DNA of 64,000 nucleotides from a virus (Duplodnaviria; Caudoviricetes), in IMG/VR virus record IMGVR_UViG_3300017764_000001. One strand, written 5' to 3'. The position numbers and the translations under genes were made by a program. Shown in pieces: positions 21,408 through 53,200 of the stretch. How positions within the stretch are numbered: position 1 is the stretch's first letter; every line of letters starts with the position of its first letter. The notes under the pieces are model-generated. The model had not been told where the DNA came from. It ran no database searches and saw only the letters and a program-made list of their open reading frames with translations.

Positions 21408-21479
21408 GGGAATGTCGCCTAAAGGTAAAGGCCCTCTGCTTATAACGGAGTGATTTGGGTTCAAGTCCCAACATTCCTA
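21408..21479 (+). tRNA. trnI: tRNA-Ile(TAT)
   Basis: Acceptor GGGAATG/CATTCCT, anticodon arm CTCTG-CTTATAA-CGGAG, T arm TTGGG-TTCAAGT-CCCAA; no encoded CCA. Confidence 0.9.
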
Positions 21480-21482
21480 TTT

Positions 21483-21555
21483 GCTTCCTTAGCAATCTGG
21501 TGAATGCAGCAAACTCATAATTTGCCTAAGGAGAGTTCGATCCTCTCAGGAAGCA
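21483..21555 (+). tRNA. trnM: tRNA with CAT anticodon (elongator Met or Ile2; not initiator-type)
   Basis: Acceptor GCTTCCT/AGGAAGC, anticodon arm GCAAA-CTCATAA-TTTGC, T arm GAGAG-TTCGATC-CTCTC; lacks the three G-C pairs of initiator tRNA. Confidence 0.85.
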
Positions 21556-21614
21556 CCTTAAGTTGGTATTCATAGGTAAATGCTTTTATTAGTATTCATT
21601 GACTAATACCCTAC

Positions 21615-21699
21615 GCGAGTATGGTGGAATCGGTAGACACACCAGACTTAAAATCTGTTGACCATCAAGGTCGTGGGAGTTCAAGTCTCCCTACTCGCA
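21615..21699 (+). tRNA. trnL: tRNA-Leu(TAA)
   Basis: Acceptor GCGAGTA/TACTCGC, D loop GGAATCGGTAGAC, anticodon loop CTTAAAA, long variable arm, T arm GGGAG-TTCAAGT-CTCCC. Confidence 0.92.
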
Positions 21700-21753
21700 C
21701 TACTTTTAACCTAACTAAATAAAATATAGAAATAGTATAGAAGCAGTAATACA

Positions 21754-24700
21754 ATGCCTCTGAATAAGTTAGAGAACTTTCTTAAGAATGCAGAAGGTCG
21801 TATACTATATGTTAGTCCGGCAGATCTTGACTCTACTGACAGCATATTAAACCAGGGTAATTCCCAAACCAAACCGTTTAAAACTCTGCAGAGAGCACTA
21901 ATTGAAGCTGCGAGATTTTCCTATAATGTTGGAAGAAATAACGATACTACAGAAAAAACCACAATTCTTCTCATGCCTGGTGAGCATGAGATTGATAATC
22001 GTCCGGGACACACAATACAAGACGATGGAAGTGGTGCATTTGTATTAAAAACACCTGATGGAAGCACTGTAGGAGATAGTACTTTAAACCTTGAATTAGA
22101 GAGCAATTTTGACTTAGCTCAAGAAGGTAATATTCTTCATAAATTCAATAGTGTGCATGGTGGGGTTATTGTCCCTAGAGGAACTTCTATTGTCGGTCTA
22201 GACTTAAGAAAGACAAAGATAAGACCTAAATATGTTCCTAACCCAACCGACGATACTGTACCATATTCTGCTCTTTTCAGAATAACAGGTGCTTGCTATT
22301 TCTGGCAGTTTAGTATTTTTGATGGAGATGAATTAGGAAAGGTATACACTGATGACAAAAATTTTGATAATGTAATAAATCAGGTACAACCAACCTTCTC
22401 TCACCACAAACTTACTTGCTTTGAATATGCTGATGGTGTAAATGATGTTGGATCATCAGGTCTTACAGACCTTGATATGTATTATTATAAACTGTCTCGT
22501 GCATATAATGCGGCATCCAATAGAAATATTCAAGAAAAATTTTTACAGGATGGGGAAGGAACTGGATTGGATGGTTTTGCGAAACAGAGACCGGAATGGG
22601 AAATTGTTGGTGCATTTGCAAATGATCCTATAGTAATTACAAGAATACAATCTGGATCTCTTCCGGGTGTTCCCACCAATCAAATAACAGTTACTACTCA
22701 AGGAGCACATAACTTATCTGTAGGAACTCCAATTAAGATTAAGGGAGTAGGTAGATCAGAATATAATATTTCAACAAAGGTAGCATCAACTGATCCAGTT
22801 CGTAATGATAAATTTACTTATACACTGCCTGATTTTCCTCTTGATCTTGAAACAGAACCTGCTGTTGATGGTGCCTTAATAACTATCGAAACTGATACGG
22901 TTTCTGGTGCCTCACCATATATTTTTAATATCTCCTTACGATCTGTATGGGGTATGAATGGAATGCACGCTGATGGTTCTAAAGCATCAGGTTTCCGTTC
23001 AATGGTTGTGGCACAATTTACCGGTGTCTCACTCCAAAAAGATGATAGAGCTTTTGTAAAATATAATATTAGTTCTAGAAAATATGAAGGTCTTAATCAA
23101 GATACAGTAAAAGGAACGACACTTGCTTTAGAATCTTCATCTACAAATACTGCTCAGATTTATCATTTAGATTCGGATGCAATTTATAGAAATGATTGGC
23201 AGACTATTCATGTTAAGATAACAAATGATGCAATCTTACAGATTGTTTCTGTGTTTGCTATTGGATATGCAAAACATTTTGAAGCTAAAAGTGGTGGTGA
23301 CGCATCAATTACAAACTCCAACTCCAACTTTGGTCAGTTAGCATTAGTTTCTGATGGATTTAGAAAAGATGCATTTAAGAAAGATGACAATGCATTTATA
23401 ACTCATATTATTACACCAAAAGCAATTACAACTGTCGAAGAAGATGTTGAGTGGGTACAACTTAGTGCTACTACTGATGCTAATACTAATAGATTATATC
23501 TATTTGGATATGATTCAGTAAATATCAAACCACCCTCTCTCACACAAGGATTTAGAGTTGGTGCAAGAAATACTGATAAGTTATATGTGAGTATTAATGA
23601 TGTGGTTTATAAAGCTGACATTAAAATGTCTAATGCCGCAGCATCAAGTGCAAGGAGATCTGTCAATATATCTACGGTTGAAGGAAATACCGGTATTTTT
23701 GAATCCTCTTCAGATCATGGTTTTACGACAGGAGAAAAGGTTATTATTATCGCTGATGATGGTGATTTACCCGAAAAAATTCTTGAACACAAAGTTTACT
23801 TTGTCATATCTGGAGGAACTTTAACAACTACTCAACTTCAATTAGCATTATCAAAATCTGATGCCGATAATGCTGTTGCGATAAAGAATACTTATATTTC
23901 AGATGCAACCAAACTTAAAGTCATAAGTAGAGTAACAGATAAAGAATCTGGAGATGTAGGACATCCAGTTCAATATGATACCACTAACGGATGGTATATT
24001 ACAACCAATTCTAATTCTGATATTCGTTCTCAAATAGTATTAGGTAATGTCAGCACAAAGACTGAGATATCATTCTTTAAGAGAATTGCTGATACTAGAA
24101 GTTTAGATGATAAAATATTCAAGACAAGAGTATCAATCCCAAAAGAAGTTCAAAATGGAAAGAATATCCAAAATGGATTTATTCTTCAAGAATCTTCTCA
24201 GACTGGTGTAAGAACTGATGGTGATTTAACCCTTAATAGAACTTTAACTGCATCTGATTTTGCATTTAGTAGAAATCAGAGATTTATTAGTAGTTGTACT
24301 TTTAACAATGGAAATGGAAAAATTACGGTAGTATCAGAACGTCCTCACAATTTACAAACTAATGATTTAGTTAAAATTGATGCAATAAGACATTCTGCAA
24401 ATACTGAAGGAACTTCTGAAAAAGGTTATAATGTGGAGGCAAGTGTCACTGTTGTTGACAACATGACATTTACGTATAATGCACCAATAACAATAAGCAC
24501 ACAACCAACTAATGATTTTATACTTGATAAAACAACTGTCAGTTCTGCATCATCATTACCTAGATTTACAAGAAAAGATTTAAGATCAAATCTTTATTTC
24601 TTCAGAAATGATATAATTTCAGAATATGATGAAGGTGTAGAAACTGGTGTATATCATGGATATCAATTATTTTCAGATTTTGCTATTCCAGAAGAATTTA

Positions 24701-27700
24701 CTAATAACAAATATAGTCAGACAGTTGTTGATTTGTATCCACAATTAGATCGTGACAACACAAATGATACTCCCACTTCTGCAAAATCATTTGCTCTTAG
24801 AGCACCTTTAGGAAAAGTTGTAACCAATGATCTCCAGAAGAGTATTACAAAAGAATCTGTTGATGAATTACTCGTTAAATTTGGATCTGCAATAAAAATA
24901 TCTTCAGAAACTGGTGGAGTTATAACACTTGAAAGGAATCATAACCTTTGTGGTATTGCACATGGAGTATTACATAGTAATAACTCTGGAATGAATAATG
25001 GAACATATGAAAACGTAAAAATATTTGAAGGACCGGTTGATTCAGGTATTTGGAACGGATCTCTAGGAAAAGTCACTGTTACTGGTGGAGAAATAACTGC
25101 CTATGAAATTACAAATCCAGGTTCGGGATTTGTGGCAGGTCAATATGGACATTGGGATTATAGACTCATTGGTGGTTCAGATGGTGCCGCTAAATTAGGA
25201 ACTAGTGACAGTGCGGCACTTGCAAATAAAAATTTAACATCTTCACCAGATAATCTTGTCATACAAGTCACTGGTTCTGGCATCACGACCGATGCATATT
25301 TTAGAACTACTAATGTACTCCAACCCAACACAATTAGTATTGCAAAAACCGCAGGTGATCCTGATATTACTTCAGATCAATATGTTTTTGTTGTCGGACG
25401 TGCCGTAAAATCTCAGTTAACAAATGTTGGAACCGGTTATAATTTTGATGATTATGATAGTATTCCTCACGGGTTAAAAGTAGGAAATAGATTCCAATAT
25501 AATGATGAAAATAATAATAAAGTAGGAACATTTATTGTTACTGATTTTGGTAGTGCAAGCAATCCCACTGCTCAATTATCCTCTCTTAAGGCAAAGTTAG
25601 AATCTTCAGAAGATGTTGGTGCTCTTTATCAGAATGGGCATATTCTAAAGCACGGACTATCTGCAAATGATGCCGATTCCGGAAAAGATGATGAAAATCT
25701 TGATGTAAGAGGAGTTCCACTTCATGGTCTCGAAAATGCTAAACTTACCTCAACTCCTGTTGCCACCAGCACAACAATAAGTTTAGGTTCTCTAGTTACA
25801 GGTGCTCAACACGGTATGGGAGTCAGATTCCCACAAGGAAGTTATATTCAAATTGATGATGAAATATTAAGAATTGCATCTTCCACTAAATCAGTAACCG
25901 GTGATGTGTTGAACAATGTTACCGTTATTCGTGGTGTATTTGGAACACAAGCGACATCACATTTACCAAGTTCCTTGGTTACAAAATTAAGTCCAATACC
26001 ATTAGAACTGCACAGATATTCAATTCTTCGTGCATCTGGACATACATTTGAATATCTTGGATATGGTCCTGGTAACTATTCTACGGCACTTCCACAAGTT
26101 CAGGTCAGAACACTCACAGAACGAGAAGAATTCCTGTCACAGGCACAAGAATTATCGGCAGGATCGGTTGTTTATACTGGTATGAATGATAAGGGTGATT
26201 TCTATATTGGTAATCAGAAGAAGTCTGCACTTACTGGTGAAGAAACCACTTTTGATAATCCAGTTCCTACTGTTGCCGGTGAAGATCCTTCACGATTAAG
26301 TGTCGTATTTGATGAGGTTACTGTCAAAGAAAGACTTGTAGTTGAGGGTGGAAAATCTAACAATATTCTGTCACAGTTTGATGGACCAGTAACCTTTAGT
26401 TCAGATGTTAGACATAAAGGAAAAGTTAAGATAAAAGATGATACGACACTTGAAAATGGTGGAGCACTTTTTGTAGAAGGTGGAGTTGATTTTGATAATG
26501 ATTTAAACGTCGGTAATGATTTAACTGTAGGTGACGATATAACTGTTGATGATAATTTATATGTTAAGGGTAACACCACTCTAGGAGATGCCAATACTGA
26601 TACCATAACATTAAATGCAGAATTTGATTCATCTTTGATTCCTGCCGGTAGTAATAAAAATATTGGTTCTGATGCAGATCAATGGAATGATATTTACATC
26701 GATGGAACTGCATACATTGATACTCTTCGTGTTGAAGAGAACAATGATAATACTCTTGGAGATGTAAATACAGGTTCTGCCCAATTTGATGGTGGTGTCG
26801 GTATTGCTAAGAAATTAACGGTCGGAATGGCTGTTACTTCCAATGACTTAATTTATGCAACTGAAGGATTCAGACTTCCACAGGATAAAAATGTTGGACT
26901 GGGATCTGAGCATAAATTTAAAATATTTGAAAATACAGACGGTAATGGTACTATAAAACATGAAGGAGATTCTGGAAATCTTGGTATCACGCTAAAGGCT
27001 GGAAATACAATTAGTTTTGGTTCAAATGGTTCATCAGATGCTGCAGAATTTACAGCCGGAGCAGATTGTAAACTTAAGCATGATGGTAATACTAAACTTC
27101 AAACTGTAACGGATGGTGTTACGGTTACCGGCACACTTACTGCAGATGATATAACTGTTGATAGTGTTACTATCGATGACAGTACTGTTACGGCAACGAA
27201 TTTTTCTGGTACGGCAACACGAGCAAATAAACCAAGAATAACAGGAGCAAATACAGCTCTTGATACTGATGTTGCTATTATTTGTTTAAACGAAACTCCA
27301 GAAAATGCCACTGCAGATCCTGGAACTTATCAAGATCTAAAGGCTACTGCTGGACTAAGATTTAATCTTGCAGAAAGTCAGTTAAAGATTAATGGAGACA
27401 TAATCGCATTTGCATCTGATGAACGATTAAAAACTAACATTTCTCCAATTACCGAGGCACTATCAAAAGTTAAATCTATTGATGGATTTACATATAACTT
27501 TAATGATACTGCAAAAGAATTGGGATTTGACACTGAAGTAGATTATGCAGGTGTTTCTGCACAGAAAGTTCAAAAAGTTCTGCCAGAAGTTGTTCGTCCC
27601 GCACCATCAGGTGATGATTATATCACTGTTCAATATGAGAAACTTGTTCCTCTCTTAATTGAGGCAATCAAGGAACTCAGTGATAAGGTTGATGACCTGG

Positions 27701-27723
27701 AACAAAAATTATCAGATAAATAA
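21754..27723 (+). CDS. Large virion structural / tail fibre protein with C-terminal S74 chaperone
   Basis: 1989 aa; MPLNKLENF..GRILYV..PFKTLQRALIEAARFSY; C-terminal SDERLKTNISPI..YEKLVPLLIEAIKEL. Confidence 0.8.
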   Translation: MPLNKLENFLKNAEGRILYVSPADLDSTDSILNQGNSQTKPFKTLQRALIEAARFSYNVGRNNDTTEKTTILLMPGEHEIDNRPGHTIQDDGSGAFVLKTPDGSTVGDSTLNLELESNFDLAQEGNILHKFNSVHGGVIVPRGTSIVGLDLRKTKIRPKYVPNPTDDTVPYSALFRITGACYFWQFSIFDGDELGKVYTDDKNFDNVINQVQPTFSHHKLTCFEYADGVNDVGSSGLTDLDMYYYKLSRAYNAASNRNIQEKFLQDGEGTGLDGFAKQRPEWEIVGAFANDPIVITRIQSGSLPGVPTNQITVTTQGAHNLSVGTPIKIKGVGRSEYNISTKVASTDPVRNDKFTYTLPDFPLDLETEPAVDGALITIETDTVSGASPYIFNISLRSVWGMNGMHADGSKASGFRSMVVAQFTGVSLQKDDRAFVKYNISSRKYEGLNQDTVKGTTLALESSSTNTAQIYHLDSDAIYRNDWQTIHVKITNDAILQIVSVFAIGYAKHFEAKSGGDASITNSNSNFGQLALVSDGFRKDAFKKDDNAFITHIITPKAITTVEEDVEWVQLSATTDANTNRLYLFGYDSVNIKPPSLTQGFRVGARNTDKLYVSINDVVYKADIKMSNAAASSARRSVNISTVEGNTGIFESSSDHGFTTGEKVIIIADDGDLPEKILEHKVYFVISGGTLTTTQLQLALSKSDADNAVAIKNTYISDATKLKVISRVTDKESGDVGHPVQYDTTNGWYITTNSNSDIRSQIVLGNVSTKTEISFFKRIADTRSLDDKIFKTRVSIPKEVQNGKNIQNGFILQESSQTGVRTDGDLTLNRTLTASDFAFSRNQRFISSCTFNNGNGKITVVSERPHNLQTNDLVKIDAIRHSANTEGTSEKGYNVEASVTVVDNMTFTYNAPITISTQPTNDFILDKTTVSSASSLPRFTRKDLRSNLYFFRNDIISEYDEGVETGVYHGYQLFSDFAIPEEFTNNKYSQTVVDLYPQLDRDNTNDTPTSAKSFALRAPLGKVVTNDLQKSITKESVDELLVKFGSAIKISSETGGVITLERNHNLCGIAHGVLHSNNSGMNNGTYENVKIFEGPVDSGIWNGSLGKVTVTGGEITAYEITNPGSGFVAGQYGHWDYRLIGGSDGAAKLGTSDSAALANKNLTSSPDNLVIQVTGSGITTDAYFRTTNVLQPNTISIAKTAGDPDITSDQYVFVVGRAVKSQLTNVGTGYNFDDYDSIPHGLKVGNRFQYNDENNNKVGTFIVTDFGSASNPTAQLSSLKAKLESSEDVGALYQNGHILKHGLSANDADSGKDDENLDVRGVPLHGLENAKLTSTPVATSTTISLGSLVTGAQHGMGVRFPQGSYIQIDDEILRIASSTKSVTGDVLNNVTVIRGVFGTQATSHLPSSLVTKLSPIPLELHRYSILRASGHTFEYLGYGPGNYSTALPQVQVRTLTEREEFLSQAQELSAGSVVYTGMNDKGDFYIGNQKKSALTGEETTFDNPVPTVAGEDPSRLSVVFDEVTVKERLVVEGGKSNNILSQFDGPVTFSSDVRHKGKVKIKDDTTLENGGALFVEGGVDFDNDLNVGNDLTVGDDITVDDNLYVKGNTTLGDANTDTITLNAEFDSSLIPAGSNKNIGSDADQWNDIYIDGTAYIDTLRVEENNDNTLGDVNTGSAQFDGGVGIAKKLTVGMAVTSNDLIYATEGFRLPQDKNVGLGSEHKFKIFENTDGNGTIKHEGDSGNLGITLKAGNTISFGSNGSSDAAEFTAGADCKLKHDGNTKLQTVTDGVTVTGTLTADDITVDSVTIDDSTVTATNFSGTATRANKPRITGANTALDTDVAIICLNETPENATADPGTYQDLKATAGLRFNLAESQLKINGDIIAFASDERLKTNISPITEALSKVKSIDGFTYNFNDTAKELGFDTEVDYAGVSAQKVQKVLPEVVRPAPSGDDYITVQYEKLVPLLIEAIKELSDKVDDLEQKLSDK

Positions 27724-27736
27724 CTAAAAAGGCATA

Positions 27737-30067
27737 ATGGCAAATTATATAAAGTCATTTAATTTTAGGAATGGGGTACAGGTTGACAATGATAATTTCA
27801 TTGTCAATGCTGTCGGCCGAGTTGGAATTGGCACAACTGTTCCAGAAAAACTCCTTGATGTAAGAGGAAATGCCAAGGTTGTAGGACATATTACCGCAAC
27901 GGATGCAAGTGTAAGTGGAATTGTAACGGTAGGAAGTATTACTATAAATGGAAGTACCGGAACGATTAGTGCTACAACTTTTTCCGGTTCTGCCGGAAAT
28001 TTTGGTGATCAGGCAGTTGTTGCCATTGCAACTGATGGATTTATTGATGTTCCTACTGGATTAACAACAACTTCTAACATAGGTATTGGAACGACTTCAA
28101 CTGATTTTCAATTACAGGTAGGAAGTAATCCGGTAACTTCTATTGGATTTGGTGTCACGAGTGGTAGTGTAACAGCAAGTGCAAATCTAAAAATAAGTGG
28201 TATTTCTACACTTGGTGTTACGACAGTAACTGATTTAACCGGGCAACAACTGAATGTATCTGGTATTTCTACACTTGGTGTTACGACAGTAACTGATTTA
28301 ACCGCACAACAACTGAATGTTTCTGGTGTTACTACCGTAACTGATTTAACCGGACAACAACTGAATGTGTCTGGTGTCTCTACATTTAGTAATAGTATTC
28401 TTATTGGAACTGGTGCAACTGTTGGATTTGGTAGTACGGCATTTTTTGGAGATAATGCAAGGGCAATCTTTGGTGCCGGTGAAGACTTACAGATTTATCA
28501 TGATGGTAGTAATAGTTATATTGATGATGCTGGCACGGGAAATCTTACTCTGAATGGTAATCATGTCGTCATTCAGAGCAATAATAACACTGAAACAATT
28601 GCAGAGTTTAGTAGTAATGGATCAGTAGAACTTTATTACGACAACTCCAAGAAATTTGAAACCACCAATGAAGGTGTATTGGTTTCTGGTGGAGCAACAA
28701 CAGGCAGTTTGAGTGTGTCTGGTGTCTCCACATTTAGTGATAATATTCTTATTGGAACTGGTGCAACTGTTGGATTTGGTAGTACCGCATACTTTAAAGA
28801 TGATGCAAAGGTAATCTTTGGTACTGGTGAAGACTTACAGATTTATCACAATGGTAGTAATAATTTTATTGATAGTGATAATACTGCTCTCTATGTTCTC
28901 TCAGATTTATTGGTTATTAATGATGGTGCTAGTAGTGAGAGCATGGCAACATTTGCCAAAGATGGAGCAGTCACACTTTATTATGATAATTCCAAGAAGT
29001 TTGAAACCAGAAGTAATGGTATTACTGTAACTGGCATAGGATCTTTTGACTCTATTGGTATCGGAACGTCGGCACCATCTACAGATTTGCAAATTAGAAA
29101 GGCATCTGGTAATGCCACACTAGAAGTCATTTCTGATACCGCAAAGGCATCTATTAGTATTGGAAATAGTGTCGGTGCCGGAAATAGTAGTGCATCGATA
29201 AATTATGGATCCACCAGTGGATTTGGCGTCTTTAGCACAAATCAATCACTTGATATCATTAATCGTGATGCCGGTAATGTCAATTTCTCTTTAGGAAATA
29301 ATACGACAAATGAAAAAGCGTTCCATTGGCATCGTGACGTAGGTAATGAACAATTAATGTCTCTGACAAAACAGGGATATCTTGGCATTGGTGTTACAAA
29401 TCCGACACATGTATTACATGTTGCTGGCATTTCTACGTTTACTGGTGCCGCATATTTTGAAGATAATGTGACAATCGATGGAACACTTTCATTCGGTAGT
29501 GGTGCCACATTAACTGCAACATTTAAAGGTGACGTACAAGATACTTCAAGTAATGTCATTCTTGATGTATCACAACCATTATTAAATGCAAATGTTAATA
29601 CAGCATCAGGTATTTCTACATTCAATAGAGTTTCTGCCGGATCTACAATAAAAACTACTAATTTAGTTGTGGGTGGTGGTGATGCTAATCGTACAATTAG
29701 TGGTCATGTCATAACAGTTAATGGAGAAACATCAAGATTTTTTGTATCCGAAACTGGGGTAATAGGAATATCTACAAACGTAGACCTTGATGATTATGCT
29801 GATGTTGGGGTATTTTCACCAAGTAAAATTGGAGTTTTTGGTGGTGTTGGTGTCGGAACCACGGCAGTAAGATGTGCTGTTGATCTTGCAGATGCTGGGA
29901 CTGTTGGTGTCGGAACAACACAACCATATTTCTTACCACCAAAAGTATCTACTGCCACTAGAAATGGTATTGGGGCAACTATAACTGGTGCCACAATTTA
30001 TAATATAACATTAAATAAATTACAAGTATATACAGGTTCTGCCTGGGAAACCGTTACAAGTAGTTAA
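27737..30067 (+). CDS. Tail fibre-like protein
   Basis: VGIGTT, GISTF and LQIYHDG fibre modules; internal repeats. Confidence 0.7.
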   Translation: MANYIKSFNFRNGVQVDNDNFIVNAVGRVGIGTTVPEKLLDVRGNAKVVGHITATDASVSGIVTVGSITINGSTGTISATTFSGSAGNFGDQAVVAIATDGFIDVPTGLTTTSNIGIGTTSTDFQLQVGSNPVTSIGFGVTSGSVTASANLKISGISTLGVTTVTDLTGQQLNVSGISTLGVTTVTDLTAQQLNVSGVTTVTDLTGQQLNVSGVSTFSNSILIGTGATVGFGSTAFFGDNARAIFGAGEDLQIYHDGSNSYIDDAGTGNLTLNGNHVVIQSNNNTETIAEFSSNGSVELYYDNSKKFETTNEGVLVSGGATTGSLSVSGVSTFSDNILIGTGATVGFGSTAYFKDDAKVIFGTGEDLQIYHNGSNNFIDSDNTALYVLSDLLVINDGASSESMATFAKDGAVTLYYDNSKKFETRSNGITVTGIGSFDSIGIGTSAPSTDLQIRKASGNATLEVISDTAKASISIGNSVGAGNSSASINYGSTSGFGVFSTNQSLDIINRDAGNVNFSLGNNTTNEKAFHWHRDVGNEQLMSLTKQGYLGIGVTNPTHVLHVAGISTFTGAAYFEDNVTIDGTLSFGSGATLTATFKGDVQDTSSNVILDVSQPLLNANVNTASGISTFNRVSAGSTIKTTNLVVGGGDANRTISGHVITVNGETSRFFVSETGVIGISTNVDLDDYADVGVFSPSKIGVFGGVGVGTTAVRCAVDLADAGTVGVGTTQPYFLPPKVSTATRNGIGATITGATIYNITLNKLQVYTGSAWETVTSS
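28198..28371 (+). repeat. Tandem 63-nt in-frame repeat (2 full copies + one 48-nt copy)
   Basis: Encodes GISTLGVTTVTDLTGQQLNVS; a further duplicated module starts at 28367 and 28715 (period 348 nt). Confidence 0.9.
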
Positions 30068-30069
30068 TT

Positions 30070-45523: not shown

Positions 45524-45529
45524 TACATT

Positions 45530-45667: not shown

Positions 45668-45676
45668 CAGCAGTTC

Positions 45677-45698: not shown

Positions 45699-45804
45699 GC
45701 CGCGGTGCGTGGCTAAAAACGCATCACTTCCCTAAGCTATAAACGACCCAAATCGACCTTTCAATTTCCCTCTCTTAAAAAAATTCTGAGCATATATAAA
45801 ATCA

Positions 45805-45996: not shown

Positions 45997-46014
45997 CTAT
46001 ATACCTGGTATGAT
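45986..46014 (+). promoter_or_regulatory. sigma70-type promoter
   Basis: TTGACA-17-TATGAT with a CAGGTA/TACCTG inverted repeat across the spacer. Confidence 0.75.
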
Positions 46015-46036
46015 ACTGAAGTAGTTTTATTCTATT

Positions 46037-46795: not shown

Positions 46796-46982
46796 TCTTT
46801 ATACGATCCTTCGTAAGAATAAGAGATTATTCACAAATCTTACCGAGGACGAATATCTGGAGATCATGCAGGATCTGGCAATTGAATTTTACGAAACCGG
46901 ATCACCAAAACCGGAACACTTACAGACTATTATTACCAACGACCACGGAGGATCTAAATGGCTAAATCAAAAACAGGACTGA
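46785..46982 (+). CDS. Hypothetical protein
   Basis: Probable GTG start at 46785 within track ORF 46614. Confidence 0.55.
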   Translation: MSSDLYTILRKNKRLFTNLTEDEYLEIMQDLAIEFYETGSPKPEHLQTIITNDHGGSKWLNQKQD

Positions 46983-47104
46983 TCAAGGACTCATATTCAC
47001 TCGGAACCCCGAAGAAGACTCGTCAGGGTGCGGGCAAAGGGACTAAGTGTACCGCGACTTCTCGTAATAATGCAAAGAAGGCATATAGGGGTCAGGGACG
47101 GTAA
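46958..47104 (+). CDS. Small basic protein (48 aa)
   Basis: Manual: MAKSKTGLIKDSYSLGTPKKTRQGAGKGTKCTATSRNNAKKAYRGQGR. Confidence 0.6.
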   Translation: MAKSKTGLIKDSYSLGTPKKTRQGAGKGTKCTATSRNNAKKAYRGQGR

Positions 47105-47130
47105 TACATAGTGTAGATATGTAAATTACC

Positions 47131-47820
47131 ATGGCATGTTTGATAACTAATCTTCCGTCACAGGAAGTATGGGTTCGTAAAGAGTATCTGACAGATCATC
47201 AAAGTGGACATGGGGAGTTTGTAAAGGGCGTCTGGGTATCGGCAAAGTCGATTCCTGGACGTGCTTTTTATTTTGAGACATATTTACCAGAATATGCCGC
47301 AATGTATGATAAACTCCCCATCAGTGCCTTTCTGAGTGAACCAAAGACACCAGATCCGGACATGACCCTACATAATCTACAGTTCTGGAACTGTATGGAC
47401 TACGGTGTAGTGGCAGTACAGAAGCAGTTTATTGGTTCGATGCACTATGAGGTCTATACAAGGGATTACGGACCTCAGACGGGCACGTACATATGTACTC
47501 TGGACAACTATCATCAAGATCCAGACTCAATTGACTATGCGACGAGTGAAAATCCGTCCGAACACAAGTCACATAACCTGATTGAACTTGATAATGGACA
47601 GTTTTGTCTGTATCCGAACAACAGAACTCGTATCTATGACAACAGTTTGACACCAGAAGAACCGAAAGTACCCGATTTTAAGGTTTCGACGGTCTATTAT
47701 CAGGTCGAAAACGGTCATGACCGTGATGGATTAGGAAATGATGAGAATTATTTCTGGAAAACGGCAAAAGAACGTCAAAATAGTGAAGAAAATGTTGAAA
47801 ATGACGGTATAAATAAATAA
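47131..47820 (+). CDS. Conserved marine T4-like phage hypothetical protein
   Basis: NLPSQEVWVRKEYLTD, AMYDKLPISAF, LQFWNCMDY, EHKSHNLIELDNGQFCLYPNNR. Confidence 0.75.
   Translation: MACLITNLPSQEVWVRKEYLTDHQSGHGEFVKGVWVSAKSIPGRAFYFETYLPEYAAMYDKLPISAFLSEPKTPDPDMTLHNLQFWNCMDYGVVAVQKQFIGSMHYEVYTRDYGPQTGTYICTLDNYHQDPDSIDYATSENPSEHKSHNLIELDNGQFCLYPNNRTRIYDNSLTPEEPKVPDFKVSTVYYQVENGHDRDGLGNDENYFWKTAKERQNSEENVENDGINK
47808..47815 (+). promoter_or_regulatory. T4-type late promoter
   Basis: TATAAATA upstream of gp25. Confidence 0.7.
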
Positions 47821-47832: not shown

Positions 47833-48234
47833 ATGGCGGTAACACGGATATCTAGAGTATTCAAGGACATTAGTTTGTCCTTTGAACCTCATCCAATCAC
47901 TAATGATCTACCAATTTTAAAGAATGAATCGGCAATTCGTCGTTCTGTAAGGAATGTCGTACAGACAATACCTACTGAAAAGTTTTTTAATAGTGTATTT
48001 GGGTCTGATGTCTATAAAAGTCTGTTTGATTTTGTAGATTTTGGTACTGCTGCGATCATTAAAGACCAAATTATCACTGCAATTAAAAATTTTGAACCTA
48101 GAGTAGAGAATGTCAGGGTCATAGTGGACCCATCACCAGATGAAAACTCATTTGAGGTTACAATATTTTTTGATATCATAGGACAAGAGTTCCCAACACA
48201 AGAATATTCATTCATATTAGAGGCAACGAGATAA
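47833..48234 (+). CDS. gp25: Baseplate wedge subunit
   Basis: FKDISLSFEPHPITNDL..AIRRSVRN..EKFFN..I..AIKNFEPRV. Confidence 0.9.
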   Translation: MAVTRISRVFKDISLSFEPHPITNDLPILKNESAIRRSVRNVVQTIPTEKFFNSVFGSDVYKSLFDFVDFGTAAIIKDQIITAIKNFEPRVENVRVIVDPSPDENSFEVTIFFDIIGQEFPTQEYSFILEATR

Positions 48235-48238
48235 TAAA

Positions 48239-50206
48239 ATGCCTTTTACTAAGTTTACAAACCTAGATTTCGATCAAATCAAGACATCCATTAAGGATTA
48301 TCTTCGTGCAAACTCCGATTTTACAGATTTTGACTTTGAGGGGTCTAATTTTTCGGCACTGATCGATACACTAGCATATAATACTTACATTACTGCATTC
48401 AATTCTAATATGATTGTGAACGAATCCTTCTTGGATTCGGCAACAGTTAGACAGAATGTAGTTTCTCTTGCCGGAAATATTGGTTATGTTCCAAGATCAA
48501 AGACTGCATCAAAAACAACCGTCTCTCTTAGGACAGTTTTAACTACTGATGAAAATGATACGAATATTGAGACTGTCACATTGAATAGTGGTGTTTTTTC
48601 AACCGGAAGTTCAAATGATACATCTTTCGTTTTTTCCACAATAGAGGACATAGAGGGAAAAATAGAAAAAGAAAGTGGTGTTGGTAGAGTTGCATATTTT
48701 GATAATATTACCATCTATCAGGGAACATTATTAAGAAAGAACTTTATATATGATGGATCTTTAGATCAAAAATTTATTTTAAATAACTCAGATATAGATA
48801 CGACTAGTGTATCGGTTTATATTAGTGATTCTGAAACTGAAAAAGGATTTAAATATGTTCCTGTAGAAAATATCCTGAATGTAACAAAAGATTCAAGAAT
48901 ATATTTTATAAGAGAAATACAAGATGAAAAATATGAAATAAGATTTGGTGATGGTATATTTGGAAAGAAACTCGGTGATGAAGGTGGTACTGACGGCAAA
49001 TATATTACCGTAGAATATTTAATTACTGACGGTAAGGTTGGTAATGGAGTTAATAAATTTACTTATGCAGGATCACTTAAAAATCAAAATGGTGCAATAT
49101 TAACACCAACAGAGGTTGATGCAATAAAAGGTGAAAAGGTCAGTGATGAAGTATATAATGAAATTGTAAAATCTCAAAATGGTAATGATATTGAAGGAAT
49201 TGATTCGGTTCGTTATTTTGCTCCAATTACGTATTCTGCACAAAATCGTGCCGTTACCCCAAGAGATTATGAGGCAATTATTAAAAGAATATATCCAGAC
49301 GCAGAGTCGATGTCTATTGTTGGAGGAGAAGAATTAGATCCTCCAGAATTTGGAAATGTAATTATTAGTATTAAACCAAAAGGTGGTACATTTGTTAGTG
49401 ACTTTAATAAAAAACAAATACTATCTAAACTTAGACAGTATTCTGTTTCTGGTATCAATCAAAGGATAATTGATCTTAAGATACTTTATGTCGAACTAGA
49501 TTCAAGTGTTTATTTTAATGAATCTTATACTTCAACAGTGTCGGCATTACAATCTCAAGTATTGAATAAACTTACTGAATATTCCAAATCAACAAACTTT
49601 AATAAATTTGGGGGTAGATTTAAATATAGTAAATTGCAAAATATAATTGATGAAACTGATAGAAATGCAATTACATCAAATATTACTAAAATAAAAATTA
49701 GAAGAAATTTAAAAGCTTCAATTAATCAGGTTGCACAATATGAATTGTGTTTTGGAAATGAATTTCATGTAAGAAAAGAAGGTCGTAATATAAAATCTAC
49801 AGGATTTAATGTTTTTGGAGAATCATCGACCGTTTATTTTACAGATGTTCCAAATGAAGATGAAAAAACAGGAATACTTCAAATTGTGAAATTAGTTGGT
49901 AATGATCAGAAAAGAATTGTAAAGTCTTCTGCCGGTACAATTGATTATATTAAAGGTGAAATAATAGTTGATACTGTAAATATTACTTCTACCATAAAAC
50001 CAGACAATATTATTGAAATTGAATCTGTTCCTGAATCTAATGATGTTGTTGGACTGAAAGATTTATATCTATCTCTTGATGTTTCAAAAAGTAGAATAAA
50101 TATGTTAAGAGATTTAATTTCTTCTGGGGATGAAATATCTGGAGTGAAATTTATCGAAGATTCATTCACCTCAAGTTATTCAAACGGAAGCATAATAAGA
50201 AACTAA
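48239..50206 (+). CDS. gp6: Baseplate wedge subunit
   Basis: LDFDQIKTSIKDYLRANSDFTDFDFEGSNFSALIDTLAYNTY..ESFLDSA; AQNRAVT..DYEAII. Confidence 0.92.
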   Translation: MPFTKFTNLDFDQIKTSIKDYLRANSDFTDFDFEGSNFSALIDTLAYNTYITAFNSNMIVNESFLDSATVRQNVVSLAGNIGYVPRSKTASKTTVSLRTVLTTDENDTNIETVTLNSGVFSTGSSNDTSFVFSTIEDIEGKIEKESGVGRVAYFDNITIYQGTLLRKNFIYDGSLDQKFILNNSDIDTTSVSVYISDSETEKGFKYVPVENILNVTKDSRIYFIREIQDEKYEIRFGDGIFGKKLGDEGGTDGKYITVEYLITDGKVGNGVNKFTYAGSLKNQNGAILTPTEVDAIKGEKVSDEVYNEIVKSQNGNDIEGIDSVRYFAPITYSAQNRAVTPRDYEAIIKRIYPDAESMSIVGGEELDPPEFGNVIISIKPKGGTFVSDFNKKQILSKLRQYSVSGINQRIIDLKILYVELDSSVYFNESYTSTVSALQSQVLNKLTEYSKSTNFNKFGGRFKYSKLQNIIDETDRNAITSNITKIKIRRNLKASINQVAQYELCFGNEFHVRKEGRNIKSTGFNVFGESSTVYFTDVPNEDEKTGILQIVKLVGNDQKRIVKSSAGTIDYIKGEIIVDTVNITSTIKPDNIIEIESVPESNDVVGLKDLYLSLDVSKSRINMLRDLISSGDEISGVKFIEDSFTSSYSNGSIIRN

Positions 50207-50207
50207 T

Positions 50208-53200
50208 ATGATACAGACAGGATTTGAAACACGGATAAAGATACAAAACATTGTATCAAGTCAACTCCCTAATTTTATATTAGATGAAAGTCCTAAAACA
50301 GTAGACTTTCTGAAACAATATTATATTTCACAAGAGTATCAAAGTGGACCTATTGATTTATCGACTAATCTAGATCAATATCTGGATTTAGATAATCTTA
50401 TTCCTGAAGTTGTAGTTGATAGTACAACTATCACTGGAGATGTAACATCTAGTGATTCTATAATAAATGTATCCAACACTAAAGGATTTCCTCAAGAATA
50501 TGGATTATTAAAAATTGGTAATGAAATTATTTCATATACAGGAATAACAACAAATTCTTTTACTGGTTGTATTCGTGGATTTAGTGGAATTAGTTCATAT
50601 AGAACAGATTCTGATAATGAAGAAATAGTTTTTACAAAAGCATCTGCAGAATCTCATAGTTCAAATTCCTCTGTTCAAAATTTAAGTAGTTTATTTTTAA
50701 AAGAGTTTTATAAAAAATTCAAAACAACTTTTGCTCCAGGATTAGAAAATAATAATTTTGTATCAACACTGAATGTTGGTAATTTTCTCAAAGAAATAAA
50801 ATCCTTCTATCAGAGTAAAGGAACGGATGAATCATTTAGAATTTTATTTGAAATTTTATACGGAGATTCACCAACAGTAATAAATTTAGAAGAAAATTTA
50901 ATTAAACCATCTTTTGCAGAATATAGAAGAAGAGAAGTTGCCATAGCAAAGGTTATCTCAGGAGAAGCATCTTTTCTTAAAGGACAGGGGTTATTTAAAG
51001 AAAATTCAAATATAGTAGCATCGATTTCAGATATATCTCCATTTTCAATTGATAATGAAATTTTTTATAAGTTATTTCTTTTTGTTGGATATGATGAGGA
51101 TTCTGATATCCAAGGAAGATTTTTATCGACTCCAAATTCAAAATGTACAGAAGATGTTCAGACTAATGCATCAATTATAAATGTCGATTCTACAATTGGA
51201 TTTGGAGCTACAGGATCTTTAAGATCAGGATCTAATGTCATTTCATATACTGATAAGACTGTAAATCAATTTTTAAACTGTGAAGGAGTTACAACTTCCA
51301 TATCTCAAGGAGATTTGGTTCATGATAAGCAAATTTATTATGGATATGAAAATGGGGATATTAATAAAAAAGTAGAATTGATATTTTTTACTACTTTAAG
51401 TAATTTTATTCCAGATGGGAATGTAAATATCAATGAAAATGATCCCATTGGAATAAAAAATCTCGGTGATAAAGTAATTAATCCTTTACAGAATAAATCT
51501 CCAAAACAAATATTAGCAAATTCTTGGATTTATAATACCAATTCTTCTTATTTTATTAGTAATTATGATACCGGCACTCTTGAACTTTTTTCAAAAATTG
51601 ATAAGTCTAGTTTAAAATTAGGTGATTTTGTTGAAATTGTTGAAAGAGATACTGGAAAGGTAATATTTCCTGATGATAGTAATAATCCTTTTGTAGCACT
51701 TAATGGACAAGAAATTCAAGAAAAGAAAAGTGTAACTTTAGATGGTGGTTTTAATCAAGATAAATTGGGTATTACCACTGACTTTAATTTAAGAAAAATA
51801 TTAAATAAAGCTAACATTGGATCTCAAAGTAATGTATCATTTAAATATGGAAACAAAAGTTTAATATCAGATATTCAAAATGTTTATTTTGATGATGAAT
51901 ATGCTTATGTTGCATCAAACTCATTACCATCAGCTAAAACAAGAAAAGGAACGACAGGATTTCCTTTTTCGGAAGATATTGATATAAAAATTAAAAAATT
52001 AGTAATAGATCTTGATAATCAAATTGGTGGAATTTTAACTTCATTCAATGAATTAACTCAAGAGTTTAGTGCCATAGAGATAAGAGATAATCTTGGTAAA
52101 TCTGTATTTAAAACTGGTGACAAGATTTTTTATCAACCACAGGGAGATGTTTTAGTTGGATTAGAAACCGGAAACTATTTTGTTGAAGTAATTGATGGTG
52201 CTGGTTTTAATGATCAAATAAAATTATATGGATCTAATTATCTTATTGGAACTGAAAATCATTTGACTTTATCTGGTGCAGGAACACATACAATTACATT
52301 AGAGTCTCAAAAGTCTGGAATAATTGGACCACAAAAATTACTTAAAAAGTTTCCAATTAAACAACAGTTAGTAGATGGAAATAAAGAAGAAACTATTCCT
52401 GGTGGAATAGGTTTATTGATAAATGGGGTTGAAATAACAAACTATAAATCTGTAGATAAAGTATATTATGGACCTTTAAAGAAAATTAATGTCTTGAATG
52501 GTGGAGAAAATTTTGATGTTATTAATCCACCAAAAATTGTCATTGAATCTGGATTAGGAAACACTGCTCTTGCTCAACCGGTTGTTTCTGGATCTATAGA
52601 GGAAGTTCTTATAGATTTTGATACTTATAATTTTAATATTGATAAAGTTATATCGATAAGTGTAACAGGAGGAAATGGATCTGGGTGTGTTCTTGAACCA
52701 TCTATTTTAAATACTTTTAGGGAAGTTGAATTTGATGCTAGGATAGCAGATGTTGGAGGAGGAATCAATACTATTACAAATCAAATTATATTTGATGTAG
52801 AACATGGTTTTATTAGTGGACAAGAAGTTATCTATGATTCTAATTTAGGCGTTCAAGTTGGAATTCAAACTATAGGTAGTGGTGGTAAATCTAATTTGGT
52901 AAATAAATCAACATATGTTGTAGATGTAACCAATAATGTCTCTATAAGATTGCATGAAAATTTTGATGATTATAGTGCTGGTATTAATACAGTTAGTTTT
53001 ACCGGAGCAACAGGATCTGGAATTCAAAAAATAAAGATAGGTCCATTGAATGTACTAAAAGATATTGTTGTAATTAATCCTGGTGAAAGATATACTAATA
53101 AAAAATTAATTGTCACATCATCGGGAATATCTACAGAGTATGATTGGATTCAATTTGAAAATCATGGATTTAATAATGGTGACTTAATAGATTATTCTAT

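What the first reader, a model, noticed from the sequence alone, without database searches (positions are those of the whole stretch)
21408..50290. Phage tRNAs match the two codons absent from an early gene but abundant in late genes: a possible translational timing switch
Reading the 396-codon early helicase codon by codon, I found no ATA and no TTA. The in-register antisense ORFs independently show that TTA/CTA/TCA are absent over long stretches of early genes (35806-36780, 37113-37643, 39166-39837, 44987-45322). In contrast gp7 has four ATA and one TTA in its first 25 codons. The island encodes exactly tRNA-Ile(TAT) and tRNA-Leu(TAA) under a consensus sigma70 promoter. Inference: early genes run on host tRNAs while virion genes depend on phage-supplied tRNAs. 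From memory, low host tRNA-Leu(UAA) has been linked to cyanophage resistance in Synechococcus.
Basis: partly seen in the sequence, partly recalled or inferred. Interest (0 to 1): 0.7.

Follow-up and report, generated by a model that had tools for sequence, protein, structure and literature searches.

The report
Cyanophage tRNAs match host-rare codons
An uncultured marine T4-like cyanophage carries tRNAs for AUA and UUA, the rarest codons of Synechococcus hosts; these codons fill its giant tail genes and are purged from a block of early genes, which is a clear case of a known principle, not a timing switch.

Summary
The helicase has 0 ATA in 30 Ile codons and 0 TTA in 24 Leu codons. Genes 35662-41396 have ATA 4/118 and TTA 2/113. 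The 18 tail and baseplate genes use ATA for 34% of Ile and TTA for 44% of Leu. TTA and ATA are the two most skewed of 59 codons, beyond what GC3 explains. One correction: the island holds three tRNAs, Ile(TAT), CAT and Leu(TAA).

ATA, TTA and AGA are the three rarest codons in marine Synechococcus. In relatives, the same "no ATA/TTA, higher GC3" signature marks the major capsid gene, the most expressed late gene (ATA 4/815 in 41 phages; 0/0/0 in Syn9). Some early-promoter genes use these codons freely. Syn9 lacks tRNA-Ile(TAT) and avoids ATA everywhere. The best reading is therefore known tRNA and codon compensation, with avoidance set by expression level. The scan noted the same pattern before in other viruses.

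There is also a new lead. The small ORF that abuts tRNA-Ile(TAT) is ATA-rich (191/280 Ile codons across the family). It keeps an invariant ATA-CGA-ATA across 47 divergent sequences. This may be an AUA-decoding sensor.

The parts
20939..20967 (+). Perfect sigma70-type promoter (TTGACA-17-TATAAT). Its first hexamer overlaps the stop codon of the 2333-aa fibre gene. It heads the operon of two small ORFs and three tRNAs.
   Evidence: The same perfect consensus precedes the syntenic small-ORF and tRNA islands of S-SKS1 and Syn9.
20997..21197 (+). ORF1, a small conserved protein (DUF7294, PHROG 662). It avoids host-rare codons.
   Evidence: Window: ATA 0/5, TTA 0/5. Family of 43 unique sequences: ATA 5/129, TTA 5/220, AGA 3/112.
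21201..21398 (+). ORF2, a small conserved 'Phd-like' protein. It is ATA-rich and its stop lies 9 nt before tRNA-Ile(TAT).
   Evidence: PHROG 375 E=2.8e-11; Pfam PhdYeFM is weak at E=0.028. Window ATA 5/7. Family ATA 191/280 Ile codons. tRNA-Ile(TAT) is called downstream in 69 of 80 loci, in all but one within 16 nt of the stop.
21360..21371 (+). ATA-CGA-ATA-CAT, the synonymously invariant codon block. It occupies codons 13 to 10 before the ORF2 stop.
   Evidence: In 47 unique in-register sequences: ATA 46/46, CGA 46/47, ATA 46/46, CAC/CAT 42/4. The flanking Leu and Thr codons are synonymously saturated. The 11-mer is not repeated elsewhere in the window above chance.
21348..21407 (+). Predicted 11-bp stem. 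GAUGAUGAACU (21348-21358, coding DDEL) pairs with AGUUCAUCAUC (21397-21407, the last two stop bases plus the whole spacer up to tRNA-Ile position -1). The loop holds AUA-CGA-AUA.
   Evidence: strand folding gives -15.3 kcal/mol, z=-2.45. At least 7 nt of complementarity is present in 23 of 57 unique variants. Other variants have a short hairpin with a T-run, or no spacer.
21408..21479 (+). tRNA-Ile, anticodon TAT, reads AUA.
   Evidence: ARAGORN; Rfam 60.6 bits. Synechococcus WH7803 has no such tRNA, and PMC3152331 reports none in the cyanobacteria it analysed.
21483..21557 (+). tRNA with anticodon CAT. It is not an initiator by its G1-C72 pair and A/U-rich anticodon stem. Whether it is elongator Met or lysidine-type Ile2 is unresolved.
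   Evidence: There was no match in E. coli genomes.
21615..21700 (+). tRNA-Leu, anticodon TAA, reads UUA.
   Evidence: About 90-95% identical to tRNAs of S-TIM5 and S-CAM4 phages.
21715..21721 (+). CTAAATA late-promoter-like motif, 33 nt before the fibre gene.
   Evidence: Similar motifs lie upstream of the genes starting at 744, 1532, 27737, 47833 and 62882.
744..20942 (+). Late virion block 1: tube-like, hub, gp5-like and fibre genes up to 2333 aa.
   Evidence: PHROG hits. GC3 0.15-0.27, mostly under 0.20. ATA is 25-41% of Ile in most genes, and TTA is 31-49% of Leu.
21754..32445 (+). Late virion block 2: a 1989-aa tail fibre, a 776-aa tail protein and two genes of unknown function.
   Evidence: GC3 0.14-0.19, ATA 22-32%, TTA 33-40%.
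32470..35584 (+). Non-structural block A: a 2OG-Fe(II) oxygenase and small ORFs. It has early-type promoters but uses TTA freely.
   Evidence: Promoters at 33123, 33197 and 34645. TTA 22/69 Leu; ATA 11/58 (observed/expected 0.40).
35662..36852 (+).
   Evidence: ATA 0/30, TTA 0/24. A sigma70-like site at 35610 ends 24 nt upstream. In 80 orthologues, ATA is 54/2454 and TTA 66/2258.
35662..41396 (+). Non-structural block B, about 13 genes. Several have a near-consensus sigma70-like promoter ending 24-82 nt upstream of the start (most 24-41 nt). The block is almost free of ATA and TTA.
   Evidence: ATA 4/118, TTA 2/113, AGA 13/98, GC3 0.44. Promoters at 35610, 36883, 37034, 37741, 38862, 38930 and 40509.
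41448..47820 (+). Non-structural blocks C and D, including a purC-like gene and members of PHROG 1574 and 3704. Depletion is intermediate.
   Evidence: ATA observed/expected is 0.35 (C) and 0.33 (D). TTA/(TTA+TTG) observed/expected is 0.97 (C) and 0.67 (D).
47833..64000 (+). Late virion block 3: gp25-like, gp6-like, a 4214-aa gp7-like gene and gp8-like (cut by the window end).
   Evidence: GC3 0.12-0.27, ATA 38-43% of Ile, TTA 37-55% of Leu. TATAAATA lies 18 nt before the genes starting at 47833 and 62882.

Best explanation
This is codon and tRNA compensation in an AT-rich T4-like cyanophage, layered on expression-dependent codon selection.

Mutation bias drives the long, low-copy tail and baseplate genes to GC3 of about 0.16. 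This fills them with ATA, TTA and AGA at about 23-29 per 1000 codons each. These are the three rarest sense codons of marine Synechococcus, at 1.4-3.1 per 1000.

The phage carries a conserved cassette of tRNA-Ile(UAU), tRNA(CAU) and tRNA-Leu(UAA). It is transcribed from a consensus sigma70 promoter that unmodified host RNA polymerase should use from the start of infection. The cassette supplies decoding capacity that the host barely has; WH7803 has no tRNA-Ile(UAU) at all.

Genes under strong translational selection are purged of exactly these codons. In this window they are the promoter-proximal early genes at 35.6-41.4 kb. In relatives they are gp23, gp32, gp45 and the same helicase.

Shown here: the counts, the composition control, the host codon ranks, the tRNA genes, the promoter motifs and the comparative pattern. 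Inferred: early expression of block B, expression of the tRNAs during infection, and the dependence of virion-gene translation on the tRNAs.
For: - TTA, ATA, AGA, CTA and GTA are the five codons most depleted in block B relative to late genes. ATA, TTA, AGA, CTA and GTA are also the five rarest codons in 84,000 codons from 14 marine Synechococcus loci.
- The depletion exceeds the composition expectation. In late genes, TTA sits exactly at the composition expectation (0.794 against 0.787), so those genes are relaxed for TTA and not enriched in it.
- WH7803 has 40 anticodons. It has single Leu-TAA and Arg-TCT genes and no Ile-TAT.
- Natural control. Syn9 has Leu-TAA and Arg-TCT but no Ile-TAT. 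Its structural genes use TTA for 20% of Leu and AGA for 55% of Arg, but ATA for only 5% of Ile. The window phage and S-SKS1 both have Ile-TAT, and their structural genes use ATA for 34% and 24% of Ile.
- High-expression genes avoid these codons whatever their timing. gp23 in 41 environmental cyanomyoviruses has ATA 4/815 and TTA 82/1553 at GC3 0.42; neighbouring late genes have 16% and 24% at GC3 0.27. Syn9 gp23 has 0 ATA, 0 TTA and 0 AGA. The lowest ATA and TTA use among long S-SKS1 ORFs is in gp23, gp45, gp32 and the helicase.
- In 80 helicase orthologues, ATA is 2.2% against 20.8% expected.
- The same anticodon trio and a perfect promoter lie at the syntenic site in S-SKS1.
- Published precedent: PMC3152331, PMC11726456 and PMC12482277.
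Against: - The host is unknown. If it is a low-GC Prochlorococcus, ATA, TTA and AGA are common (18-27 per 1000) and compensation would matter only on Synechococcus-like hosts.
- This genome's own gp23, gp32 and gp45 could not be read, so the expression-level argument rests on relatives.
- High expression of block B genes is inferred from promoters only.
- There is a real early-below-late trend in Syn9 (TTA/Leu 0.13 against 0.20; AGA/Arg 0.18 against 0.55). A timing component is therefore not excluded.
- The three-phage comparison of tRNA presence with codon use is anecdotal (n=3).
Confidence: 0.7

Rival explanations
1. A true translational timing switch, which is the reader's hypothesis and resembles bldA. 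Early genes are written without AUA and UUA so that they run on host tRNAs. Virion genes can only be translated once the phage tRNAs have accumulated, so the tRNAs gate late protein synthesis.
For: - There is a strong, codon-specific contrast between block B and the virion genes.
- The tRNA operon has an early-type promoter, so supply would build up before late transcription.
- In Syn9, UUA-rich morphogenesis proteins are not made when tRNA-Leu(UAA) is lacking (PMC11726456).
- Syn9's early block has less TTA and AGA than its structural genes.
Against: - gp23, the bulk of late translation, avoids ATA and TTA in S-SKS1, Syn9 and 41 environmental relatives.
- Early-promoter block A uses TTA for 22/69 Leu, and ORF2 in the tRNA operon uses ATA for 5/7 Ile.
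- In S-SKS1 the class contrast is weak after composition control (ATA observed/expected 0.53 late against 0.47 early block).
- Late genes already have their own late promoters.
- A tRNA made from a consensus early promoter is a poor delay device.
Confidence: 0.12
2. Mosaic origin. The 35.6-47.8 kb block was acquired from a higher-GC Synechococcus phage or host. Its codon usage is a leftover of that origin and is unrelated to the tRNAs.
For: - GC steps from about 0.37 to 0.43 at 36 kb and back to 0.30 at 48 kb.
- Parts of the block are 75-82% identical at the DNA level to Synechococcus phages, whereas the structural genes find little.
Against: - The depletion is codon-specific and far beyond the block's own third-position composition.
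- There is no close donor. The best DNA identity is about 80% over short pieces.
- The helicase keeps the signature in 80 orthologues from loci of GC 0.35-0.44.
- gp23 and ORF1 show the same signature in many phages. This points to maintained selection, not recent import.
- The purC-like gene is closest to Firmicutes, not cyanobacteria.
Confidence: 0.07
3. Host-range or anti-defence role. The cassette exists mainly to let an AT-rich phage cross between low-GC Prochlorococcus and high-GC Synechococcus. Alternatively, it replaces host tRNAs that are depleted or cleaved during infection. The codon pattern would then be secondary.
For: - The fibre gene 21754-27723 is about 75% identical at the DNA level to fibre genes of Prochlorococcus phages P-SSM2 and P-SSM5.
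- ATA and TTA are common in low-GC Prochlorococcus and rare in Synechococcus.
- The host-range, host-degradation and nuclease-escape hypotheses are all published (summarised in PMC12482277).
- An orphan Phd-like antitoxin-type ORF sits in the same operon.
Against: - There are no host data for this phage.
- The tRNAs chosen are exactly the ones for the rarest host codons, not the usual nuclease targets.
- This reading overlaps the best explanation more than it competes with it.
Confidence: 0.15

Closest known systems
tRNA and codon compensation in T4-like cyanophages (Limor-Waisberg et al. 2011, PMC3152331; Enav et al. 2012; Zborowsky, Tahan and Lindell 2025, PMC11726456)
   Same: These are AT-rich myoviruses of GC-rich Synechococcus that carry tRNAs with AT-rich anticodons. 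Leu(TAA) is among the commonest. Ile(TAT) occurs in several phages although no cyanobacterium analysed has it. UUA-rich Syn9 virion proteins fail when tRNA-Leu(UAA) is lacking. Codon usage by early, middle and late cluster has already been compared.
   Different: This phage is uncultured and its closest isolate is S-SKS1 (gp6 62% amino-acid identity). The contrast for ATA is unusually strong, at 34% of Ile in virion genes. The papers I could read do not describe the ORF-tRNA-Ile module or the capsid-gene exception.
Phage T4 temporal codon classes and T4 tRNAs (Cowe and Sharp 1991; Kunisawa 1992; cited from my own knowledge, not read here)
   Same: Codons read by phage-encoded tRNAs are commoner in late genes, and the tRNAs supplement a host pool that fits the phage genes poorly.
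   Different: The host and the tRNA set are different. Here the comparison shows that the top-expressed late gene goes with the 'early' codon class.
Late-gene reliance on phage tRNAs in lytic phages that destroy the host (Yang et al. 2021, as summarised in PMC12482277; Shigella phage Sf14, PMC12482277)
   Same: Late structural genes are better adapted to the phage tRNA pool than to the host pool.
   Different: Those phages carry near-complete tRNA sets (about 26 in Sf14). This island has three tRNAs aimed at the rarest host codons. Host degradation was not examined here.
Streptomyces bldA tRNA-Leu(UAA) and TTA-containing regulators (PMC2000904, PMC10732093)
   Same: A rare codon in a GC-rich host, with a single dedicated tRNA, makes translation of a few genes depend on that tRNA. 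ORF2, with its fixed AUA-CGA-AUA next to tRNA-Ile(UAU), has this logic.
   Different: In bldA the rare codon sits in a few regulators. Here it floods thousands of positions in structural genes. No delay of the tRNA is shown, and the promoter is of the early type.
Leader-peptide transcription attenuators (trp, his, leu operons)
   Same: A translated ORF with tandem codons cognate to the downstream product lies immediately upstream of that product, and RNA hairpins overlap its end.
   Different: ORF2 is a conserved protein of 57-65 aa, not a disposable leader. The hairpin layout varies between variants: a long stem in 23 of 57, a T-run hairpin in 8 of 57, and none in the rest. The product is a tRNA gene, and no terminator/antiterminator pair is shown.

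Membership tests
Phage tRNA codon-usage compensation | Intact phage-encoded tRNA genes | tested here: met
   ARAGORN finds three tRNAs. Rfam RF00005 scores are 52-61 bits against a cut-off of 29.
Phage tRNA codon-usage compensation | The cognate codons are common in the phage and rare in the host | tested here: met
   Virion genes have ATA at 27.8 and TTA at 28.7 per 1000 codons. Marine Synechococcus has 1.4 and 3.0 per 1000, its two rarest codons. Caveat: the true host is unknown, and low-GC Prochlorococcus uses both codons often.
Phage tRNA codon-usage compensation | The host has no or few cognate tRNA genes | tested here: inconclusive
   WH7803, the host of relative S-SKS1, has no Ile(TAT) and one Leu(TAA) gene. 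The host of this phage is not known, and tRNA levels were not measured.
Phage tRNA codon-usage compensation | The phage tRNAs are expressed and used in infection | not testable with these tools
   A consensus promoter lies upstream. Contigs from marine RNA libraries cover the island and bridge ORF2 to tRNA-Ile and tRNA to tRNA. Such contigs cannot prove transcription, level or timing.
tRNA-gated temporal switch (bldA-like) | The rare codons are excluded from early genes and confined to the gated (late) class | tested here: not met
   Early-promoter block A has TTA 22/69, and operon ORF2 has ATA 5/7. In relatives, the main late gene gp23 lacks these codons.
tRNA-gated temporal switch (bldA-like) | The tRNA appears later than the ungated genes are translated | not testable with these tools
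   The promoter is of the early type, which argues against a delay, but no time course is available.
Leader-peptide attenuator (for ORF2 and tRNA-Ile) | Tandem regulatory codons cognate to the downstream product, conserved as codons | tested here: met
   Positions -13, -12 and -11 are ATA 46/46, CGA 46/47 and ATA 46/46. Neighbouring codons are synonymously saturated.
Leader-peptide attenuator (for ORF2 and tRNA-Ile) | Mutually exclusive terminator and antiterminator structures controlled by ribosome position | tested here: inconclusive
   The window has one 11-bp stem that pairs the DDEL codons with the tRNA 5' leader. That stem is present in 23 of 57 variants, a T-run hairpin in 8, and neither in the rest. 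No alternative pairing was identified.

The most novel reading that the evidence does not exclude
The small conserved ORF that ends 9 nt before tRNA-Ile(UAU) may be a built-in sensor of AUA-decoding capacity. Its invariant AUA-CGA-AUA would pause ribosomes when AUA decoders are scarce. In this phage, a ribosome paused there would hold open an 11-bp stem that otherwise sequesters the 5' leader of pre-tRNA-Ile. That would couple maturation of the tRNA, or synthesis of the Phd-like protein, to the cell's ability to read AUA. This would be a feedback device for a phage tRNA, or a bldA-like checkpoint.
Probability: 0.25. Interest if true: 0.65.

Novelty: new member of a known kind. Interest (0 to 1): 0.38.

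Why it matters
The finding as given is a clean, quantitative example of a known rule. Phage tRNAs cover the codons that an AT-rich phage overuses and its GC-rich host can barely read.

The comparison adds two useful points. First, avoidance of these codons follows expression level, not timing: the capsid gene behaves like the early genes. Second, carrying tRNA-Ile(UAU) goes with a five- to seven-fold higher use of ATA in structural genes, although this rests on three phages only.

Both points bear on tRNA-based resistance in marine Synechococcus. They indicate which phage proteins would fail first in a host that silences a rare tRNA.

The ORF-tRNA-Ile module, with its fixed AUA-CGA-AUA, is widespread in marine cyanophages. 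It can be tested directly in S-SKS1 on WH7803.

Tried and rejected
- **Rest of this genome.** No whole genome is held. Exact-pattern scans of viral contigs and metagenome contigs found nothing. Logan contigs carrying gp7 and gp8 all end about 3.8 kb past the window end. This phage's own gp23, gp32 and gp45 could therefore not be read.
- **Identity of tRNA(CAT).** There was no BLAST match in E. coli genomes. It is only 61-65% identical to any WH7803 tRNA. The acceptor and anticodon-stem pairs do not fit the E. coli Met or Ile2 rules that I recall. Its identity is unresolved.
- **Third CAT tRNA in WH7803.** Only two CAT tRNAs were found by Rfam, ARAGORN and a pattern search. The third expected one was not detected, and I draw no conclusion from that.
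- **Host loci from the purC-like gene.** Using this gene to fetch host loci returned Firmicutes, not cyanobacteria. S-SKS1 psbA was used instead.
- **RNA-library contigs.** They cover the island and bridge ORF2 to tRNA-Ile. They cannot show transcription start, level or timing, and parts without cover mean nothing.
- **Papers not held.** Enav 2012, Doron 2016 and Bailly-Bechet 2007 are not in the library. Syn9 expression classes were therefore approximated from gene order and annotation.
- **Pure GC3 explanation.** Rejected.
- **Recent import of block B.** Rejected as the main cause.
- **The 11-mer ATACGAATACA as a repeated regulatory motif.** Rejected, because only chance-level near-matches occur in the window.

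Full report
**What the window is**

All genes lie on the + strand. PHROG and Pfam hits identify a T4-like cyanomyovirus.
- Virion genes occupy 744-20942, 21754-32445 and 47833-64000. They include a tube-like gene, a gp26-like hub, gp5-like, fibres of 1070, 2333 and 1989 aa, gp25-like, gp6-like, a 4214-aa gp7-like gene and gp8-like.
- A non-structural block at 32470-47820 lies between them. It holds a 2OG-Fe(II) oxygenase, an SF2 helicase, a purC-like gene and many small ORFs.

The closest isolate is Synechococcus phage S-SKS1 (gp6 62% amino-acid identity). It is syntenic in reverse orientation. Near-identical DNA occurs in marine viral and seawater metagenomes of several studies.

**Checking the observation**

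The counts are right.
- The helicase (35662-36852) has ATA 0/30 Ile and TTA 0/24 Leu.
- The first 25 codons of gp7 hold 4 ATA and 1 TTA.
- The four antisense ORFs are codon-aligned with their sense genes, so they do report absence of TTA, CTA and TCA.
- A perfect TTGACA-17-TATAAT sits at 20939-20967.

One point is incomplete. The island holds three tRNAs: Ile(TAT) at 21408-21479, a CAT tRNA at 21483-21557 and Leu(TAA) at 21615-21700. Two small ORFs lie between the promoter and the tRNAs.

**Is it more than GC3?**

Yes. The 18 virion genes (15,562 codons) have GC3 of 0.16. Block B (35662-41396, 1,692 codons) has GC3 of 0.44, so composition is a serious confounder. I took expectations from each class's own four-fold sites and its own AAR, GAR and CAR codons.

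| Class | ATA/Ile observed | ATA expected | TTA/(TTA+TTG) observed | TTA expected |
|---|---|---|---|---|
| Block B | 4/118 | 0.248 (P=2.5e-10) | 2/27 | 0.49 (P=4e-6) |
| Virion genes | 0.343 | 0.440 | 0.794 | 0.787 |

Late genes are therefore at the mutational expectation for TTA and only mildly below it for ATA. The selected state is the avoidance in block B.

Ranking all 59 degenerate codons by RSCU ratio puts TTA first (log2 -4.4), ATA second (-3.1) and AGA third (-2.5), followed by CTA and GTA. Other A-ending codons shift by only -0.5 to -1.4.

For the helicase alone, the corrected test is weak (P=0.017 and 0.066).

The depletion is also patchy.
- Block A (32470-35584) uses TTA for 22/69 Leu.
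- Blocks C and D are intermediate.
- ATA is below expectation in all non-structural blocks (observed/expected 0.14-0.40).

**Expression class**

Sigma70-like sites with at least 10 of 12 matches fall in intergenic positions at 33123, 33197, 34645, 35610 (helicase), 36883, 37034, 37741, 38862, 38930, 40509, 43418 and 45986, plus the perfect one at 20939. Most end 23-41 nt upstream of a non-structural gene start. No such site is intergenic within the virion blocks.

T4-type late motifs (TATAAATA, CTAAATA, ATAAATA) lie 14-33 nt upstream of the genes starting at 744, 1532, 21754, 27737, 47833 and 62882. They also precede the genes at 32470 and 35072.

**Why these codons**

In 84,238 codons from 14 marine Synechococcus loci, the five rarest sense codons are ATA (1.4 per 1000), TTA (3.0), AGA (3.1), CTA (3.4) and GTA (4.0). 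These are the same five codons that are most depleted in block B. Low-GC Prochlorococcus uses ATA, TTA and AGA at 18-27 per 1000.

Synechococcus WH7803 has 40 anticodons. It has one Leu(TAA) gene, one Arg(TCT) gene and no Ile(TAT). This agrees with PMC3152331, which found TAT absent from all cyanobacteria it analysed.

The virion genes use ATA and TTA at about 28 per 1000 codons. That is about 20-fold and 10-fold the Synechococcus level.

**Timing or expression level?**

Relatives decide this question.
- S-SKS1 has the same anticodon trio at the syntenic site, although RefSeq annotates only the Leu tRNA there. It also has ten more tRNAs elsewhere, including Arg(TCT).
- In S-SKS1 the class contrast almost disappears after composition control. 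ATA observed/expected is 0.53 in late genes and 0.47 in the early block.
- Among its ORFs of at least 150 codons, those with the lowest ATA and TTA use include a DNA methyltransferase, gp45, gp23 (major head protein: ATA 0/20, TTA 1/38), the helicase orthologue (0/35, 1/26) and gp32.
- In 41 environmental cyanomyoviruses, gp23 has ATA 4/815 and TTA 82/1553 at GC3 0.42. Its late neighbours have 16% and 24% at GC3 0.27.
- In Syn9, gp23 has no ATA, TTA or AGA at GC3 0.56. The same holds for ATA and TTA in gp32 and gp45. The giant fibres use TTA for 17-34% of Leu and AGA for 64% of Arg.
- The helicase keeps the signature in 80 orthologues of 59-92% identity: ATA 54/2454 against 20.8% expected, and TTA 66/2258.

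The signature 'GC3 about 0.4, no ATA or TTA' therefore marks strongly selected genes of any temporal class. The window's late class happens to contain only very long, low-copy proteins.

A residual early-below-late trend does exist in Syn9 (TTA/Leu 0.13 against 0.20; AGA/Arg 0.18 against 0.55). A timing component is therefore not excluded.

**Do the tRNAs matter for codon use?**

A natural control suggests that they do. Syn9 carries Leu(TAA) and Arg(TCT) but not Ile(TAT). Its structural genes tolerate TTA and AGA but hold ATA to 5% of Ile (3.5 per 1000). The window phage and S-SKS1 carry Ile(TAT), and their structural genes use ATA for 34% and 24% of Ile. With three phages this is suggestive only.

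A perfect sigma70 consensus precedes the small-ORF and tRNA islands of all three phages. This fits transcription by unmodified host polymerase from the start of infection. That suits a supply function better than a delay.

**What is already known**

Zborowsky, Tahan and Lindell 2025 (PMC11726456) showed that lack of tRNA-Leu(UAA) makes Synechococcus WH5701 resistant to Syn9. UUA is enriched in the untranslated phage proteins. The authors also compared codon usage by early, middle and late cluster.

Limor-Waisberg et al. 2011 (PMC3152331) described the AT-rich tRNA sets of cyanomyoviruses. Late-gene reliance on phage tRNAs has been argued for Sf14 and a vibriophage (PMC12482277).

This scan has noted the same two-dialect pattern before on other DNA, namely a giant virus and other phages. 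The finding is therefore a new member of a known kind.

**A new lead inside the island**

The second small ORF (21201-21398; PHROG 375 'Phd-like antitoxin'; weak Pfam PhdYeFM) ends 9 nt before tRNA-Ile(TAT).

In 80 IMG/VR cyanophage loci with a homologue, ARAGORN calls tRNA-Ile(TAT) downstream in 69, and in all but one of these it lies within 16 nt of the stop. Of the 69 loci with enough downstream sequence to read the order, 39 have the full order TAT, CAT, TAA. The tRNA-Ile sequences themselves belong to several quite different types.

The ORF family is far richer in ATA than its surroundings.

| Sequence set | ATA/Ile |
|---|---|
| ORF2 family | 191/280 (68%; own four-fold expectation 0.44) |
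| ORF1 family, same operon | 5/129 |
| Other ORFs of the same loci | 25% |

In 47 unique in-register sequences (56-100% amino-acid identity), some codons before the stop are fixed and their neighbours are not.

| Codon position before stop | Codon counts |
|---|---|
| -13 (Ile) | ATA 46/46 |
| -12 (Arg) | CGA 46/47 |
| -11 (Ile) | ATA 46/46 |
| -10 (His) | CAC 42, CAT 4 |
| -14 (Leu) | CTC 20, CTA 13, CTT 8, CTG 4, TTG 2 |
| -9 (Thr) | ACT 34, ACC 7, ACA 5 |

Another Ile position in the alignment has ATT 23, ATA 12 and ATC 11. Two loci whose tRNA-Ile is not adjacent lack the motif.

In the window, GAUGAUGAACU (21348-21358) pairs with AGUUCAUCAUC (21397-21407). The second arm covers the whole spacer up to tRNA position -1 (-15.3 kcal/mol, z=-2.45). 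A ribosome paused on AUA-CGA-AUA would cover the 5' arm. This stem is present in 23 of 57 unique variants. Others have a short hairpin with a T-run, or no spacer.

I read this as a candidate AUA-decoding sensor, either feedback on tRNA-Ile maturation or tRNA-dependent synthesis of the small protein. Only the conservation is shown; the mechanism is inference.

**Verdict**

It is best explained by known tRNA compensation plus expression-dependent codon selection. The ORF2 and tRNA-Ile module is the part worth an experiment.

Noticed in passing
window 21201-21407: A small Phd-like ORF abuts tRNA-Ile(TAT). Across the family, ATA accounts for 191/280 Ile codons. The codon block ATA-CGA-ATA is invariant in 47 divergent sequences. 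An 11-bp stem pairs its DDEL codons with the tRNA 5' leader.
   Followed up: yes
window 21483-21557: The third tRNA (anticodon CAT) was omitted by the finding. It is not an initiator by its G1-C72 pair and A/U-rich anticodon stem. Whether it is Met or lysidine-type Ile2 is unresolved. If it is Ile2, the island would carry two AUA decoders.
   Followed up: partly
L002 (S-SKS1 NC_020851, record 178217-178598): ARAGORN finds tRNA(CAT) and tRNA-Ile(TAT) next to the annotated tRNA-Leu, and RefSeq lacks both. These tRNAs are only 49-64% identical to the window's, although the anticodons and the site are the same.
   Followed up: partly
L379-L458 (IMG/VR loci): Several unrelated sequence types of tRNA-Ile(TAT) follow the same conserved ORF end. 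This looks like cassette exchange at a conserved junction.
   Followed up: no
window 42401-43126: The purC-like SAICAR synthetase gene is closest to Firmicutes homologues (40-47% identity among the best 80 genome hits), not to marine picocyanobacteria.
   Followed up: no
window 1532-2254 and 9072-9716: Two late virion genes almost lack ATA (1/23 and 0/14) but use TTA normally (7/20 and 6/16). The two codons are therefore not always treated alike.
   Followed up: no
window 21210-21216: A CTAAATA late-promoter-like motif lies just inside the start of ORF2. The tRNAs might therefore also be transcribed late.
   Followed up: no
G001 (Synechococcus WH7803 genome): Only two CAT-anticodon tRNAs were detected: the initiator and one other. 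Three are expected. The third may have escaped the search filters.
   Followed up: partly
window 20800-22000: Contigs from marine RNA libraries match the island. Some bridge ORF2 to tRNA-Ile, and others bridge tRNA-Ile, tRNA(CAT), tRNA-Leu and the fibre gene start. This is compatible with a polycistronic precursor but is not proof of transcription.
   Followed up: partly
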